A stretch of DNA of 64,000 bases, from NCBI GenBank assembly GCA_000004985.1, contig GG738864.1. One strand, 5' to 3'. Each line of letters begins with the position of its first letter. The first letter of the stretch is position 1. This stretch comes from Naegleria gruberi. Taxonomy: Eukaryota. This document shows positions 14,444 to 18,881 of the stretch, piece after piece. Below the pieces are notes generated by a model that was not told the DNA's origin, did not search any database, and saw only the letters and a program-made list of their open reading frames with translations. The position numbers and the translations under genes are program-made.

Positions 14444-15877
14444 ATGAAACTTATCAATTTTCTAAGTCTTCTTGATAGCTGTTGGTGCACTGTCTTCTAA
14501 CTTGGTTTCGTCACAAGAAGTTAGGGATGTTTCTTTGAAAGTATGTTAAAAATCTCTAGATTTAGTCAATTACAAGCTTTTAAGATACACTGGCTTCTCT
14601 ATCGACCTAATTCAATTTCTTGTTTCCAAAATGACAAACGTGTCCATTGAATTTTATGAAGCTCCAGATGGTACCTTTGGTAGTCCAACTGCTGCGAATG
14701 TGAATGGAAACTGGTCAGGAACCATCGGTGAAATAATATCTGGTCGTGCTGATGTCATGATTGGCCCTTTAACAATTACTCAAAGTAGACATCAAGTCAT
14801 GGATTTTACAACAAGTTTCTTTGATGTTGGACTTTCTATTCTAACTCTTAAACAAGGAGAGGAATCTAATTTATTTTCATTCTTATTACCATTCTCGTGG
14901 GAGGTTTGGATTTTGATTTTCGTGAGTGCATTAATAGTTGCCTTGCTAACATGGGTTTTTGACCATGTTTCGCCTTATGGACATTCGAAACAATCAGACG
15001 AATCAAAGAATGAATTTGATTTTAGTGGTTCGTTAATCAATGTATGACAATATCTGGTCAAGACGGAAATCCAGGTAAAAGCTGGTCAACCAGAATCATG
15101 TTGTTAGGTTATTTCCTCTTTGTCATGATTATTCTCTCAACTTATACAGCTAATTTGGCAGCCGTCCTGACAACAAAGGTTCAATCCACAAGAGTTACTG
15201 GACTATCTGATATCAGAACCTACGGATTCAAGTTTGGTGTGGCTAAAAACTCTGCTCCTGCTTCTTACATTTCCAGCAGTGAAGACATGGCAGATATCAA
15301 AAAGAATATGGTTGTATTCGATTCCCTCGATGATTGTTTACAAGCTCTGAGAGATGGAAAGGTGGATGCTTTGATTTGGGCAAGTGCCATTCTCGAATAT
15401 ATGGCCAATCAACCACCATGTGATACTTTGGTCGTTGGTGATTTGTTTAGTCCTGGAAATTATGGTTTACCTTTTGCTAAGGGAAATTGGATGATTGGTC
15501 ATTTCACTTCGGTGTTGTTGTCGATGAGAGAAAGTGGACTTGTTGAGAAACTCAAAAGGAAGTGGTGGATTGATAAGGGAAGCTGTTCATTGGTTGAATT
15601 GACACAAACAGCAACAGGTGTAAAGATTCAAGACTTGGGAGGTATCTTTTTGATTTTGGCAGGTTTTGTAGTTGTTGGTGGTGTGGTTTTGATATTCGAA
15701 TTAGTATATAGGGCTGTATATGACAAGACAAAACACAAAACTAAACATCTGAAATATCTGAATAGATTCTTGGGAGGTGAAAAGCACCTAGTTCAACGTG
15801 AGAAAGATGTACAGGAATTGAACACCACGAATATTGCAACTCCAACACTCGAAAAAGATGGGAATATGAACCAGTAA
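14444..15877 (+). pseudogene. Minimal ionotropic glutamate receptor (S1-M1-P-M3-S2-M4, no amino-terminal domain) with several reading-frame lesions; possibly a pseudogene
   Basis: Contains YTGFSIDLIQFL, GNWSGTIGEIISGRADVMIGPLTITQSR (S1), the pore/M3 STYTANLAAVLTT (the SYTANLAAF signature), S2 and M4. The frame breaks at about 15044-15047, so the track splits it into ORFs 14631-15047 and 15044-15877. An in-frame TAA lies at about 14547-14549 within a 36-nt GTATGT...AAG segment that may be a mini-intron. The signal-peptide-like start at 14444 is in yet another frame. Confidence 0.5.
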
Positions 15878-16055: not shown

Positions 16056-16174
16056 GGCTACGGCCATATCACGATGAATGCACCTCATCCCGTCCGATTT
16101 GAGAAGTTAAGCATCGTCGAGCCACATCAGTACTGAGGTTGGAGACAACTTGGGAACCTGTGGTGCTGTAGTCT
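16056..16174 (+). rRNA. 5S ribosomal RNA, solo copy
   Basis: GGCTACGGCCATATCAC...CCCGTCCGATTTGAGAAGTTAAGC...GTACTGAGGTTGGAGACAACTTGGGAACCTGTGGTGCTGTAGTC matches the eukaryotic 5S consensus, including box A/C regions. The terminal helix pairs 5' GGCTACGG with 3' CTGTAGTC. Followed by TTTTTT. Confidence 0.8.
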
Positions 16175-16321: not shown

Positions 16322-17278
16322 TTACACCATCAAACAGCCTTTCTTTTTTTTATGTAGAGATAATACCTCTTCCAGCACTTTTTTTGGATCATCAATACGT
16401 ACTCGAAACTTTCTAACACATTCTTCCACTAATTTATCAATATTTTCATTTGTTTTTGCACTTGTTTTCAAAATTGTACAATTAGTCAATTCAAATTCTT
16501 TTACAACTTCTTGTACCATTTCCAAATTAATTTCATACCTATCAGGGAGATCACATTTGTTCATGGCAATCATACAGGGAGCATTCTTTCCCTTCCTATC
16601 TACAAATTTACTTATCAATATTTTCAATTCTTCCAAACTTTTCTGGTCTATCATTGAGCAAACAAGAATCAAAACATCGAACATGCAATTTTTCCAATAA
16701 TAATCAGTTTCTTCCTCACTACACGTATCCAAAAAGTTTACAGTTTCCTCTTCATCATCCACAGAGATTGTTCGTTTGTACGAATCATAACCGGTAGGGT
16801 CATATTCTAGGAAGAATTGCCCATATATAAATCTTGTTATGATTGAGGATTTTCCACTGCCTCCCCTTCCAATCACTAACAGCTCAATAATTGGTGTATC
16901 AAATTTTTTTCTAAATATTTTCCCTTGTTTTTCTCTTGTTCGAATCAAATGAATAAAGTAACCTAAACTTTTAACAACTCCAATCTTGGCGAATTTATCA
17001 AAAACATGCAAAGATTCCATTTCTTTTGATTCTACTGATATCGAATACTGATCAAATATCACACCAACAAAAATCCAACAAAATTCATCAATGTATTTTG
17101 CAATAAATTTCGAATAATTTGGATGAATCAATCGGAAACTTAATACATTCGGAATGGAGTTTTTTAATTGATGGAAATATTGTTCATGCAATTTTCTTTC
17201 AGCTAACTCATAAAACGGAGACAAGTATGAAATAATTTCTGTATGAATCTCTTGGGGAAGTTGAAGAAATTTGGACAT
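16322..17278 (-). CDS. F-box-like N-terminus fused to a divergent Ras-superfamily small GTPase domain
   Basis: 318 aa, ATG start, TAA stop. N-terminus LPQEIHTEIISYLSPF is F-box-like. GTPase motifs: G1 GRGGSGKSS, G4 NKCD, G5 TSAK. Switch II reads LDTCSEEE instead of DTAGQE (Gly60 and catalytic Gln61 replaced). Confidence 0.6.
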   Translation of the reverse strand: MSKFLQLPQEIHTEIISYLSPFYELAERKLHEQYFHQLKNSIPNVLSFRLIHPNYSKFIAKYIDEFCWIFVGVIFDQYSISVESKEMESLHVFDKFAKIGVVKSLGYFIHLIRTREKQGKIFRKKFDTPIIELLVIGRGGSGKSSIITRFIYGQFFLEYDPTGYDSYKRTISVDDEEETVNFLDTCSEEETDYYWKNCMFDVLILVCSMIDQKSLEELKILISKFVDRKGKNAPCMIAMNKCDLPDRYEINLEMVQEVVKEFELTNCTILKTSAKTNENIDKLVEECVRKFRVRIDDPKKVLEEVLSLHKKKKGCLMV

Positions 17279-17393: not shown

Positions 17394-17466
17394 GCCGACA
17401 TAGCTCAGTTGGGAGAGCGTAAGACTGAAGATCTTAAGGTCCCTGGTTCGATCCCTGGTGTCGGCA
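17394..17466 (+). tRNA. tRNA-Phe (anticodon GAA)
   Basis: GCCGACATAGCTCAGTTGGGAGAGCGTAAGACTGAAGATCTTAAGGTCCCTGGTTCGATCCCTGGTGTCGGCA is near-identical to metazoan tRNA-Phe. Has a 7-bp acceptor stem, D-loop AGCTCAGTTGGGAGAGC and T-loop GGTTCGATCC. Followed by a TTTTT run at about 17470-17474. Confidence 0.9.
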
Positions 17467-17864: not shown

Positions 17865-18881
17865 TCAAATAACACCAATATCAAGTGATGTTAATTGTTT
17901 CATTTCACTTATGAATTTGGATCCTTCTACACCAATTTGATTGTAAGTAATGTCAAGTGATGTTAATTGTTTCATTTCACTTATGAATTTGGCTCCTTCT
18001 ACACCAATTTGATTGCCAGTAATATTAAGTGTTAATTGTTTCATTTCACTTATAAATTTGGATCCTTCTACACCAATTTGATTGTAACCAATATTAAGTG
18101 ATGTTAATTGTTTCATTTCACTTATATATTTGGATCCCTCTACACCAATCCCATTATAATATATATCAAGTGATGTTAATTGTTTCATTTCACTTATGTA
18201 TTTGGCTCCTTCTACACCAATTTGATTGTAACCAATATTAAGTGATGTTAATTGTTTCATTTCACTTATATATTTGGTTCCCTCTACACCAATTCCATTA
18301 TAATATATATTAAGTGATGTTAACTGTTTCATTTCACTTATGTATTTGGATCCTTCTACACCAATTTGATTGTAAGTAATGTCAAGTGATGTTAATTGTT
18401 TCATTTCACTTATGTATTTGGCTCCTTCTACACCAATTTGATTATCAGAAATATAAAGTGATGTTAATTGTTTCATTTCACTTATGAATTTAACTTTATC
18501 TGGAGAGTTACGCAACCTATAACAAAACTTAACATTTACAATACTATTCTTGAATTGGCTTTTCATAAACAATTCAATTCTATTTTCTGTAAATTGTTTT
18601 TTAAATTGAATAACAAGTCTTGAACGTTCCCGGATCACATTAAAGAATTGTTTTGAAATTAAAGAACAATTATTCAAAATAAACCACGAATCATCAATCA
18701 TGGAAATTATGTCAAAACAAACATCATCTGAAAATATATCTTGTTGGAGTTTCACAACTTTTTTTGCTTTCTCTTTCATCGAATAATTATCATTAATCAA
18801 TAGCTCCTCCGAAATTAATTGATTTGCAAAATCTTGGCTGATTCGTTTGCTCATTTTTTTATTACTAATAGTTTTCTTCAT
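17865..18881 (-). CDS. F-box-like plus leucine-rich-repeat protein with about 8 near-identical 24-aa repeats
   Basis: 338 aa. Repeats EMKQLTSL(D/N)I(T/G/Y)YNQIGVEG(A/S)KYIS. N-terminus DVCFDIISMIDDSWFILNNCSLIS is F-box-like. Stop is TGA, with an in-frame TAA about 26 codons later. Confidence 0.6.
   Translation of the reverse strand: MKKTISNKKMSKRISQDFANQLISEELLINDNYSMKEKAKKVVKLQQDIFSDDVCFDIISMIDDSWFILNNCSLISKQFFNVIRERSRLVIQFKKQFTENRIELFMKSQFKNSIVNVKFCYRLRNSPDKVKFISEMKQLTSLYISDNQIGVEGAKYISEMKQLTSLDITYNQIGVEGSKYISEMKQLTSLNIYYNGIGVEGTKYISEMKQLTSLNIGYNQIGVEGAKYISEMKQLTSLDIYYNGIGVEGSKYISEMKQLTSLNIGYNQIGVEGSKFISEMKQLTLNITGNQIGVEGAKFISEMKQLTSLDITYNQIGVEGSKFISEMKQLTSLDIGVI
17880..18480. repeat. Tandem 72-bp nucleotide repeats encoding the LRR units (8 or more copies, over 90% identical)
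   Basis: Recurring TTGTTTCATTTCACTTAT(G/A)(A/T)ATTTGG(A/C)TCC(T/C)TCTACACCAAT(T/C)(T/C)(G/C)ATT units are visible directly in the sequence. Confidence 0.6.

What the first reader, a model, noticed from the sequence alone, without database searches (positions are those of the whole stretch)
16322..17278. F-box fused to a Ras-like GTPase with a disabled switch II
P-loop, NKxD and SAK motifs are intact, but DTAGQE is replaced by DTCSEEE. The catalytic Gln and the switch II Gly are lost, which predicts a hydrolysis-dead, nucleotide-locked GTPase. Coupled to an F-box it would be an SCF substrate adaptor whose recognition module is a pseudo-GTPase.
Basis: partly seen in the sequence, partly recalled or inferred. 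Interest (0 to 1): 0.5.

Follow-up and report, generated by a model that had tools for sequence, protein, structure and literature searches.

The report
Naegleria Ras GTPase with split F-box
This is an intact gene of the amoeba Naegleria gruberi for a membrane-anchored Ras-type GTPase with a worn-down molecular switch and a diverged F-box-like head. It belongs to a gene expansion whose F-box–GTPase fusions are already described in the literature, so it is a modest rather than a striking finding.

Summary
The ORF at 16322-17278 (-) is real. It is identical to Naegleria gruberi XP_002678008.1, annotated as a Ras family small GTPase.

**GTPase observation: correct.**
- GRGGSGKS, Thr35, NKCD and SAK are intact.
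- DTAGQE is DTCSEEE (G60S, Q61E).
- Switch II also carries a 4-residue deletion.

**F-box: only half visible in this protein.** Pfam gives 12.9 bits against a cut-off of 20.5. The protein belongs to a Naegleria/Willaertia subfamily (at least 13 members) built as LPxEI head, helical linker, Ras domain and CaaX.
- The subfamily N-terminal profile matches F-boxes (hhalign probability 94-96%; 0 of 150 shuffles reach the score).
- The F-box is interrupted by a variable insert. With the insert removed in silico, the query scores 23.7 bits.

**Switch II loss is a family trend.** Position 61 is P, A, H or E in most members, and G60 is lost in several.

**Limits on the interpretation.**
- "Hydrolysis-dead" is not safe: Ras Q61E has raised intrinsic GTPase activity. 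G60 loss more plausibly breaks the switch.
- F-box–GTPase fusions in Naegleria were published in 2021, for Rab, Rho, Ran and Gα but not Ras.
- The closest paralogue is a putative pseudogene and no orthologue was found, so decay remains a live rival.

Verdict: new member of a known kind, of modest interest.

The parts
16322..17278 (-). Complete intronless CDS (318 aa plus stop) = N. gruberi XP_002678008.1, 'ras family small GTPase'
   Evidence: ORF list. 100% identity and 100% coverage to P0001. Accession.
17213..17269 (-). F-box first half, aa 4-22 FLQLPQEIHTEIISYLSPF (LPxEI loop plus helix 1)
   Evidence: Pfam F-box 12.9 bits, profile positions 1-19. hhalign of the query alone aligns aa 4-27. 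L7, P8 and E10 are invariant in 9-11 family members.
17153..17212 (-). Variable insert inside the F-box, aa 23-42 (YELAERKLHEQYFHQLKNSI)
   Evidence: Length-variable, gap-rich block in the family alignments. hhalign skips it. Removing it raises the PF00646 score from 12.9 to 23.7 bits.
17069..17152 (-). Degenerate F-box second half plus the 'xW' motif, aa 43-70 (PNVLSFRLIHPNYSKFIAKYIDEFCWIF)
   Evidence: Aligns to the family consensus I..v..fQSi.KkF ... FNxxxWK, which hhalign pairs with the VcKrW ... LW part of F-boxes. W68 is nearly invariant.
16892..17068 (-). Helical linker conserved within the subfamily, aa 71-129; no known domain
   Evidence: Family alignment. AF2 predicts helices at low confidence, pLDDT 39-65. 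No Pfam match.
16403..16891 (-). Ras-family G domain, aa 130-292
   Evidence: Pfam Ras 89.2 bits. PDB phmmer best hits RalA/Rap1B/KRas at 1e-21. AF2 pLDDT 74-96 in this region. Foldseek top hits Rap1B/KRas with TM (target) 0.83-0.88.
16847..16870 (-). P-loop GRGGSGKS, aa 137-144 (G1, intact)
16778..16804 (-). Switch I YDPTGYDSY, aa 159-167: Thr35 equivalent kept; effector residues I36G and E37Y differ from the family consensus YDPTIEDSY
16709..16729 (-). Degenerate G3/switch II DTCSEEE, aa 184-190 (A59C, G60S, Q61E), followed by a 4-residue deletion relative to H-Ras Y64-M67
   Evidence: DNA read directly. Alignments.
16550..16561 (-). G4 NKCD, aa 240-243 (intact)
16454..16462 (-). G5 SAK, aa 273-275 (intact)
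16325..16351 (-). Polybasic stretch plus CaaX box, aa 310-318 (KKKKGCLMV): predicted prenylated membrane anchor
   Evidence: Translation. The Cys is invariant in the family and the consensus is KKKCxxM. Herman et al. note a CaaX motif in one of the Naegleria GTPase subgroups that carry an N-terminal extension.

Best explanation
**What is shown**
- The ORF is an intact nuclear gene of Naegleria gruberi.
- It encodes a lineage-specific, fast-evolving member of a heterolobosean (Naegleria, Willaertia) subfamily of Ras-type GTPases.
- Subfamily members share one architecture: an N-terminal F-box-derived motif split by a variable insert, a roughly 60-residue helical linker, a Ras G domain, and a polybasic CaaX tail.
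- This copy keeps every motif that holds guanine nucleotide and Mg2+ (G1, Thr35, Asp57, G4, G5).
- It has lost the DxxG glycine and the catalytic glutamine, has lost four residues of the switch II helix, and has changed two effector-loop residues.

**What is inferred**
- The protein still binds GTP/GDP and sits on a membrane through a prenylated tail.
- Switch II can no longer follow the gamma-phosphate and no conventional GAP can act on it, so it does not work as a regulated on/off switch.
- The N-terminal LPxEI helix, the part of the F-box under visible constraint across the family, most likely tethers the protein to Skp1.
- Two outcomes of Skp1 tethering are possible. The Ras-like domain may act as a fixed, membrane-bound recognition surface of an SCF-type ligase. 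Alternatively, the protein's own abundance may be set by SCF-dependent turnover in place of GTP hydrolysis.
For: - **Identity and organism:**
- **Ras domain:**
- **Motif states:**
- **Subfamily with the same architecture:** found in N. gruberi, N. lovaniensis, Willaertia magna and two environmental contigs.
- **N-terminal constraint:** L7, P8 and E10 are invariant although the N-terminal regions are only 12-25% identical.
- **F-box, Pfam on native sequences:** 7 of the 9 members scanned (the query and 6 of 8 others) give sub-threshold F-box or F-box-like hits at exactly this site, up to 22.9 bits over profile positions 2-44 of 47.
- **F-box, profile level:** family profile against F-box alignments gives hhalign probability 93.9-95.9% and P 1.6e-7 to 5.4e-9. 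The maximum score over 150 column shuffles is 13.5 against observed scores of 39-46. The result is the same without the query.
- **F-box, insert removed:** the query reaches 23.7 bits on PF00646 (cut-off 20.5). Three paralogues pass one or both F-box cut-offs at 21-33 bits.
- **Switch II trend:** position 61 is Q in only 2 of the 13 full-architecture members (P x6, A x2, H x2, E in the query). G60 is lost in 4 of them.
- **Linked divergence:** copies without G60 are 29-33% identical to H-Ras; copies with G60 are 40-51% identical.
- **Ras G60A:** adopts the effector-incompetent state 1 with drastically impaired GTPase (PMC4867591).
- **Precedents:** F-box–GTPase fusions in Naegleria, interpreted as GTPase-dependent ubiquitination (PMC8296547 Additional file 4). 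Prenylated F-box proteins FBXL2, FBXO10 and Rcy1p. RhoBTB, an atypical GTPase fused to a cullin adaptor (PMC4931677).
Against: - The native query fails both Pfam F-box cut-offs. Alone it matches only helix 1.
- Its helix 2-3 region carries IHPNY where F-boxes have VcKrW.
- It is unknown whether a 20-residue insert between helices 1 and 2 is compatible with Skp1 binding.
- A profile search of the PDB gave only non-significant F-box hits: FBXL5 E=0.46, AnkB E=0.64.
- AF2 models of the N-terminus are low confidence (pLDDT 39-68) and gave no fold match.
- Glu at position 61 can support intrinsic hydrolysis in Ras.
- No orthologue was found in any collection, and no N. fowleri one-to-one orthologue is listed. 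Purifying selection on this copy therefore cannot be shown.
- The closest paralogue is flagged as a putative pseudogene.
- Herman et al. scanned this protein for extra domains and listed none.
Confidence: 0.55

Rival explanations
1. Decaying duplicate. The gene is a recent product of the birth-and-death expansion of Naegleria Ras genes. It is drifting under relaxed selection, and its eroded switch II, altered effector loop and degenerate F-box second half are early pseudogenisation rather than a new function.
For: - Herman et al. describe birth-and-death evolution with disrupted copies in the divergent GTPase clades.
- The nearest paralogue (46% identity in the G domain) is flagged as a putative pseudogene. 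It has lost both the CaaX and the N-terminus.
- The neighbouring table entry XP_002680544 has a broken P-loop, GPGGSGIH.
- No orthologue was found in N. fowleri, N. lovaniensis, Willaertia or metagenomes.
- The query is among the members most diverged from H-Ras, at 31%.
- Its CaaX ends in V where the family has M.
Against: - The 318-codon frame is open (P about 2e-11 by chance).
- All nucleotide-binding motifs are perfect: G1, T35, D57, NKCD and SAK.
- The invariant family residues L7, P8, E10, W68 and C315 and the polybasic stretch are retained.
- Losses are concentrated in the switch and effector surfaces rather than spread evenly.
- Herman et al. did not flag this gene as a pseudogene.
Confidence: 0.2
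2. The N-terminal extension is not a working F-box. It descends from an F-box, or merely resembles one, but now serves as a subfamily-specific helical domain that binds other partners or folds back on the G domain, with no link to Skp1 or SCF.
For: - Native Pfam scores are below threshold in every member.
- Variable inserts of 0 to about 45 residues split the motif.
- Trp of the VcKrW motif is replaced by F, I or Y in the family.
- A second conserved helical block (aa about 85-120) has no F-box counterpart.
- Herman et al. listed no extra domain for any member of this Ras subfamily.
- An intramolecular GTPase–adaptor domain contact is the accepted model for RhoBTB.
Against: - The invariant residues are exactly the F-box hallmark LPxE(I/L).
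- Profile-profile probability is 94-96%, with alignment running through to the LW motif.
- De-inserted sequences pass the Pfam cut-offs.
- The same genome fuses clear F-boxes to Rab, Rho, Ran and Gα domains.
Confidence: 0.15
3. It is still a cycling GTPase. Glu188 takes over the role of Gln61 and the Ser187 backbone NH still contacts the gamma-phosphate. The protein then hydrolyses GTP intrinsically and works as a normal, if GAP-independent, switch.
For: - Ras Q61E has increased intrinsic GTPase activity (PMC2987813, PMC10515638).
- All nucleotide- and Mg-binding motifs, plus G12 and G13, are intact.
- From established knowledge: Rap proteins work without Gln61.
Against: - Ras G60A, the mildest possible change at that site, already locks state 1 and drastically lowers GTPase activity. 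Ser is bulkier than Ala.
- Four residues of the switch II helix are deleted.
- Effector residues 36 and 37 are changed.
- Loss of G60 goes with accelerated divergence of the whole G domain in the family.
Confidence: 0.1

Closest known systems
Naegleria F-box–GTPase fusion proteins (Herman et al. 2021, BMC Biol 19:142, Additional file 4 and Table S8)
   Same: Same organism and same design. Each has an N-terminal extension recognisable as an F-box upstream of a Ras-superfamily G domain. One subgroup carries a C-terminal CaaX. The expansion is lineage-specific and shows birth-and-death evolution. The authors propose GTPase-dependent ubiquitination.
   Different: The paper lists F-box fusions for Rab, Rho, Ran and Gα, not for Ras. 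XP_002678008.1 and its subfamily mates are entered as plain 'Ras' with no additional domain. Here the F-box is split by an insert and falls below the Pfam threshold, and the G domain is Ras/Rap/Ral-like.
RhoBTB (atypical Rho GTPase fused to BTB domains, Cul3 adaptor)
   Same: An atypical, non-classically regulated small-GTPase domain joined in one polypeptide to a cullin-RING ligase adaptor module. [quoted passage not shown] Inactivation is thought to occur by auto-ubiquitination. RhoBTB3 carries a CaaX (PMC4931677).
   Different: The adaptor module is BTB (Cul3), C-terminal to the GTPase, not an F-box (Skp1/Cul1) N-terminal to it. The G domain is Rho rather than Ras. No BTB domain is found here.
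TbFRP (FYVE–F-box–GTPase of Euglenozoa)
   Same: An F-box placed N-terminal to a small-GTPase domain in another discoban lineage. [quoted passage not shown]
   Different: TbFRP has a FYVE domain for membrane targeting and a Rab18/Ypt6-like G domain. The authors found no Naegleria orthologue. The protein here has no FYVE domain, uses a CaaX tail, and is Ras-like.
Atypical GTPases and pseudoGTPases that bind nucleotide but lack catalytic residues (Rnd1-3, RhoH, RGK family; Stiegler & Boggon 2020 classification)
   Same: Nucleotide-binding motifs are retained while the catalytic and switch II residues are substituted. Regulation is expected through expression, localisation and degradation rather than GAP/GEF cycling (from established knowledge; reviews listed).
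   Different: Those proteins are animal Rho/RGK members without an F-box. None of their biochemical properties has been measured for this protein.
Prenylated F-box proteins (FBXL2, FBXO10, yeast Rcy1p)
   Same: F-box proteins anchored to membranes by a C-terminal CaaX, giving compartment-specific SCF complexes or, for Rcy1p, Skp1 complexes (PMC9988375, PMC11042265, PMC2175155).
   Different: Their substrate-binding parts are LRR or other domains, not a GTPase domain.

Membership tests
Ras family small GTPase (Pfam PF00071; Ras/Rap/Ral branch) | HMM score above the curated cut-off, and G-domain fold | tested here: met
   89.2 bits against a cut-off of 21.6. PDB best hits RalA/Rap1B/KRas at 1e-21. 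AF2 plus Foldseek TM (target) 0.83-0.88 to Rap1B/KRas.
Ras family small GTPase (Pfam PF00071; Ras/Rap/Ral branch) | G1 GxxxxGK[ST], G2 Thr35, G4 NKxD, G5 SAK | tested here: met
   GRGGSGKS, T162, NKCD, SAK
Ras family small GTPase (Pfam PF00071; Ras/Rap/Ral branch) | G3 DxxG with catalytic Gln61 (DTAGQE) | tested here: not met
   DTCSEEE: G60S and Q61E, plus a 4-residue deletion in helix alpha2
Ras family small GTPase (Pfam PF00071; Ras/Rap/Ral branch) | C-terminal CaaX membrane anchor | tested here: met
   KKKKGCLMV; the Cys is invariant in the family. Actual prenylation was not tested.
F-box domain (PF00646 / PF12937) | HMM score above the curated cut-off on the native sequence | tested here: not met
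   12.9 bits (cut-off 20.5) and 11.3 bits (cut-off 24.3), covering only profile positions 1-21
F-box domain (PF00646 / PF12937) | LPxE(I/L) loop plus the amphipathic helix 1 pattern | tested here: met
   LPQEIHTEIISYL. L7, P8 and E10 are invariant in the subfamily.
F-box domain (PF00646 / PF12937) | Helices 2-3 (L..l..VcKrW) and the trailing LW | tested here: inconclusive
   Family profile against F-box alignments gives 93.9-95.9% with 0/150 shuffles reaching the score. The query with its insert removed scores 23.7 bits on PF00646 over positions 1-33 of 43. But the native query has IHPNY in place of VcKrW and lies behind a 20-residue insert.
F-box domain (PF00646 / PF12937) | Three-helix F-box fold | tested here: inconclusive
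   AF2 N-terminus pLDDT 39-68. Foldseek of the N-terminal model found nothing below E=2.8.
F-box domain (PF00646 / PF12937) | Binds Skp1 | not testable with these tools
   Needs a pull-down or two-hybrid assay, or a multimer structure prediction with N. gruberi Skp1.
Naegleria F-box–GTPase fusions (Herman et al. 2021) | Conserved N-terminal extension with an F-box upstream of a Ras-superfamily G domain, in a heterolobosean-specific expansion | tested here: met
   At least 13 proteins share the architecture, in N. gruberi, N. lovaniensis and W. magna. This protein is in their Table S8, but as 'Ras' without an extra domain.
Nucleotide-binding, hydrolysis-impaired atypical GTPase (pseudoGTPase in the broad sense) | Catalytic and switch residues substituted while nucleotide-binding motifs are kept | tested here: met
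   (sequence level only)
Nucleotide-binding, hydrolysis-impaired atypical GTPase (pseudoGTPase in the broad sense) | Measured nucleotide binding with little or no hydrolysis | not testable with these tools
   Biochemistry is required. Ras Q61E hydrolyses faster than wild type, whereas G60A is impaired.
TbFRP (FYVE–F-box–GTPase) | N-terminal FYVE domain and a Rab18/Ypt6-like G domain | tested here: not met
   No FYVE hit. The G domain is closest to Ral/Rap/Ras. The authors found no Naegleria orthologue.
RhoBTB | Rho-type G domain followed by tandem BTB domains | tested here: not met
   No BTB hit. This is an analogy of logic only.

The most novel reading that the evidence does not exclude
The query is one member of an unrecognised heterolobosean class of membrane-anchored SCF receptors whose substrate-binding module is a Ras domain. 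In this class the catalytic Gln was lost early (P, A, H or E at position 61 in 11 of 13 members) and the DxxG glycine was lost repeatedly. GTP hydrolysis would then have been replaced by SCF-dependent turnover as the off-switch, and copies such as this one would have become nucleotide-insensitive pseudo-GTPase adaptors.
Probability: 0.25. Interest if true: 0.55.

Novelty: new member of a known kind. Interest (0 to 1): 0.3.

Why it matters
If the F-box is functional, Naegleria couples Ras-type domains directly to cullin-RING ubiquitin ligases at membranes. [quoted passage not shown] It would also show a series running from intact switch to eroded switch within one subfamily. That would be a natural experiment in how a GTPase becomes a pseudo-GTPase, and in replacing hydrolysis by degradation as the off-switch, as proposed for RhoBTB.

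In practical terms, the split F-box explains why domain scans missed it, and the same correction probably applies to other Naegleria Ras genes. If the copy is merely decaying, it only illustrates the known birth-and-death dynamics of this gene expansion.

Tried and rejected
- **Word-indexed protein search, full protein.** It found only the protein itself and one weak hit.
- **Same search with the N-terminal profile.** Nothing at E<=10.
- **Same search with the full-length family profile.** Swamped by canonical Ras and added no subfamily members. It does show the G domain is nearest true Ras.
- **N-terminal profile against PDB sequences.** Two of the five hits are F-box proteins aligned in register (FBXL5, Legionella AnkB), but at E about 0.5, which is not significant.
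- **AF2 of the N-terminus alone.** Mean pLDDT was 62, and Foldseek against the PDB gave no hit below E=2.8, so this was uninformative.
- **tblastn of the protein against the window.** No paralogue in the 64 kb.
- **Metagenome scan for orthologues to test selection.** Only a 28% relative was found.
- **TbFRP orthology.** Rejected: no FYVE domain, and a Ras-like rather than Rab-like G domain.
- **Alignment artefact for switch II.** Rejected: four independent alignments agree.
- **F-box in the neighbouring LRR ORF (17865-18881).** Not supported: hhalign probability 1-2%.
- **Bacterial or viral origin.** Rejected: exact match to the N. gruberi nuclear scaffold, with eukaryotic 5S rRNA and tRNA genes alongside.
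Full report
**1. What is there**

The window is AT-rich eukaryotic DNA of about 33% G+C. A single 318-codon ORF lies on the minus strand at 16322..17278. Its product is 100% identical over its full length to N. gruberi XP_002678008.1 / EFC45264.1, named "ras family small GTPase". The gene model is therefore this intronless ORF. An open frame of this length is not chance at this base composition (P about 2e-11).

**2. The GTPase half**

Pfam Ras scores 89.2 bits (cut-off 21.6) over aa 133-291. The best solved relatives are RalA, Rap1B and KRas at about 1e-21. An AlphaFold2 model built on 11 family sequences has pLDDT 74-96 in this domain. It superposes on Rap1B and KRas with target-normalised TM 0.83-0.88.

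Reading the alignments gives the motif states below.

| Motif | Sequence in this protein | State |
|---|---|---|
| G1 | GRGGSGKS | intact; G12 and G13 kept |
| Switch I | YDPTGYDSY | Thr35 kept; I36G and E37Y |
| G3 | DTCSEEE | A59C, G60S, Q61E |
| G4 | NKCD | intact |
| G5 | SAK | intact |

The DNA at 16709-16729 reads back as GAT ACG TGT AGT GAG GAA GAA. In addition, four residues at the position of H-Ras Y64-M67 are missing and two extra residues precede strand beta4.

**3. The F-box half**

- On the native sequence Pfam gives 12.9 bits for F-box (cut-off 20.5) and 11.3 bits for F-box-like (cut-off 24.3). Both cover only aa 4-25, LPQEIHTEIISYLSP. Taken alone this is a hint, not a domain call.
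- An exhaustive HMMER scan of 1.84 billion representatives found proteins that match the query from the N-terminus through the G domain. They come from N. gruberi, N. lovaniensis and Willaertia magna, plus two environmental contigs.
- Further N. gruberi members appear as corrected models in Table S8 of Herman et al. 2021.
- All members share the same layout: an LPxEI...ILSYL head, a length-variable insert, a block I..v..fQSi.KkF, a block FNxxxWK, a helical linker, a Ras domain, and KKKCxxM.
- L7, P8 and E10 are invariant although the N-terminal regions are only 12-25% identical.
- Of the 9 members scanned with Pfam (the query and 8 others), 7 give sub-threshold F-box or F-box-like hits at this exact site. 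The best is 22.9 bits over profile positions 2-44 of 47.
- A 13-sequence profile of the N-termini was compared by hhalign with an alignment of ten canonical F-boxes. The result was probability 93.9%, P=1.6e-7, score 39.4.
- With nine Naegleria F-boxes taken from Table S8 added, the result was 95.9%, P=5.4e-9, with 44 aligned columns running to the trailing LW.
- None of 150 column-shuffled profiles exceeded a score of 13.5. The reversed profile scored 6-8. The result is unchanged without the query.
- hhalign places the family insert between F-box helix 1 and helix 2. I removed the insert once, at the hhalign boundaries. The query then scored 23.7 bits on PF00646 over positions 1-33 of 43. Three paralogues scored 21-33 bits, passing one or both cut-offs.
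- The query alone still matches only helix 1, and its second half reads IHPNY where F-boxes have VcKrW.
- Structure prediction of the N-terminus was low confidence and gave no fold match. A profile search of PDB sequences put FBXL5 and AnkB among five hits, but at E about 0.5.

Conclusion: the subfamily N-terminus is F-box-derived and split by an insert. In this copy the first half is well kept and the second half is degenerate. Skp1 binding is untested.

**4. Switch II in the family**

| State | Number of the 13 full-architecture members |
|---|---|
| Position 61 = Gln | 2 |
| Position 61 = Pro | 6 |
| Position 61 = Ala | 2 |
| Position 61 = His | 2 |
| Position 61 = Glu | 1 (the query) |
| Gly60 lost | 4 (query, P0026, P0037, XP_002673059) |

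Gly60 is also lost in the extension-less relative XP_002680544. Copies lacking Gly60 are 29-33% identical to H-Ras, and those keeping it are 40-51% identical. The deviation is therefore a trend of the subfamily, not an artefact. Loss of the glycine goes with faster divergence of the whole domain. That pattern fits either release from switch constraints or decay.

**5. What the substitutions predict**

- Ras Q61E has increased intrinsic GTPase activity (PMC2987813 and PMC10515638). Loss of Gln does not by itself predict a hydrolysis-dead protein.
- Ras G60A predominantly adopts the effector-incompetent state 1 and has drastically impaired intrinsic GTPase (PMC4867591). Ser is bulkier than Ala.
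- Together with the 4-residue deletion in helix alpha2 and the changed residues 36 and 37, the most likely outcome is a protein that binds nucleotide, because all binding motifs are intact. Its switch II would no longer track the gamma-phosphate, and no canonical GAP could act on it.
- "Nucleotide-locked" remains an inference.

**6. Literature context**

- Herman et al. [quoted passage not shown]
  - They report that the F-box is the most frequent extra domain, found with Rab, Rho, Ran and Gα domains.
  - Divergent clades carry a conserved N-terminal extension that is sometimes recognisable as an F-box.
  - One subgroup has a CaaX.
  - These clades show birth-and-death evolution.
  - They read this as pointing to GTPase-dependent ubiquitination.
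- Ras is not in their list of F-box fusions. XP_002678008.1 and its subfamily mates are entered as "Ras" with no additional domain and no pseudogene flag.
- The next row of the table is the closest paralogue (46% identity in the G domain, matching fragment P0008). It is flagged as a putative pseudogene.
- XP_002678008 does not appear in the N. fowleri sheet, where N. gruberi orthologues are listed.
- Other precedents:
  - TbFRP, a FYVE–F-box–Rab-like GTPase of Euglenozoa (PMC3593210).
  - Legionella Rab-domain proteins carrying F-boxes.
  - RhoBTB, an atypical Rho domain fused to Cul3-binding BTB domains with an auto-inhibition and auto-ubiquitination model (PMC4931677).
  - The prenylated F-box proteins FBXL2, FBXO10 and Rcy1p.

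**7. Mechanism and rivals**

Best explanation (confidence 0.55): a membrane-anchored, nucleotide-binding but switch-defective Ras-like protein. Its conserved LPxEI helix ties it to Skp1/SCF. It then acts either as a fixed recognition surface for the ligase or as a protein whose level is set by SCF-dependent turnover.

- **Shown:** the identity of the gene, the architecture, the motif states, the family trend, and family-level F-box homology.
- **Inferred:** nucleotide binding, loss of switching, prenylation, Skp1 binding, and the direction of ubiquitination.

Rivals:
- a decaying duplicate (0.2);
- an N-terminal domain that no longer functions as an F-box (0.15);
- a GTPase that still cycles using Glu188 (0.1).

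I could not test selection because no orthologue exists in the collections searched.

**8. Verdict**

The kind of protein, an F-box–GTPase fusion of Naegleria with an atypical GTPase lacking catalytic residues, is already known. What is added here:
- a Ras-type subfamily also carries an F-box, in split form;
- domain scans missed it;
- the subfamily shows progressive erosion of switch II.

I classify it as a new member of a known kind, with interest 0.3.

Noticed in passing
window 16056-16174 (+) and 17394-17466 (+): The gene is sandwiched between two RNA polymerase III genes on the opposite strand. A 5S rRNA gene (105 bits) lies 148 bp beyond its stop codon. A tRNA-Phe(GAA) gene lies 116 bp upstream of its ATG, leaving very little room for a promoter.
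   Followed up: no
window 14631-15047 (+) and 15044-15877 (+): An ionotropic-glutamate-receptor-like gene (Lig_chan, 58.7 bits on the second ORF) is split into two ORFs in different frames that overlap by 4 nt. This could be a short intron or a frameshift.
   Followed up: no
window 17865-18881 (-): The neighbouring ORF is an array of near-identical 24-residue LRR_6 units (ISEMKQLTSLxIxxNQIGVEGxKY; 122 bits). Its N-terminus (DDVCFDIISMIDD...LISKQFFNVI) looks F-box-like by eye, but hhalign gives only 1-2% probability.
   Followed up: partly
window 16691-16708 (-), aa 191-196, just after DTCSEEE: Switch II carries a 4-residue deletion relative to H-Ras Y64-M67 and to all paralogues, plus two extra residues before beta4.
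   Followed up: yes
Related proteins P0008 / N. gruberi contig ACER01000199.1, and XP_002680544.1 (Herman et al. Table S8): The closest paralogue (46% identity in the G domain; switch II DSFGIL; no CaaX; truncated N-terminus) is flagged as a putative pseudogene. The entry before the query in the table has a broken P-loop (GPGGSGIH) and SQID in place of NKxD. Together they look like a small cluster of degenerating Ras copies.
   Followed up: partly
Related proteins P0003-P0007, P0010: The best-scoring hits outside Heterolobosea are proteins made of two or three tandem Ras domains. One example is Anaeramoeba ignava KAJ5070002.1, which has three domains and non-canonical switch II variants (DTVGSEE, DTATAEE).
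   Followed up: no
Subfamily alignment: Within the F-box-like Ras subfamily, members that lost Gly60 are 29-33% identical to H-Ras, whereas members keeping it are 40-51% identical. Loss of the DxxG glycine therefore coincides with accelerated divergence of the whole G domain.
   Followed up: partly
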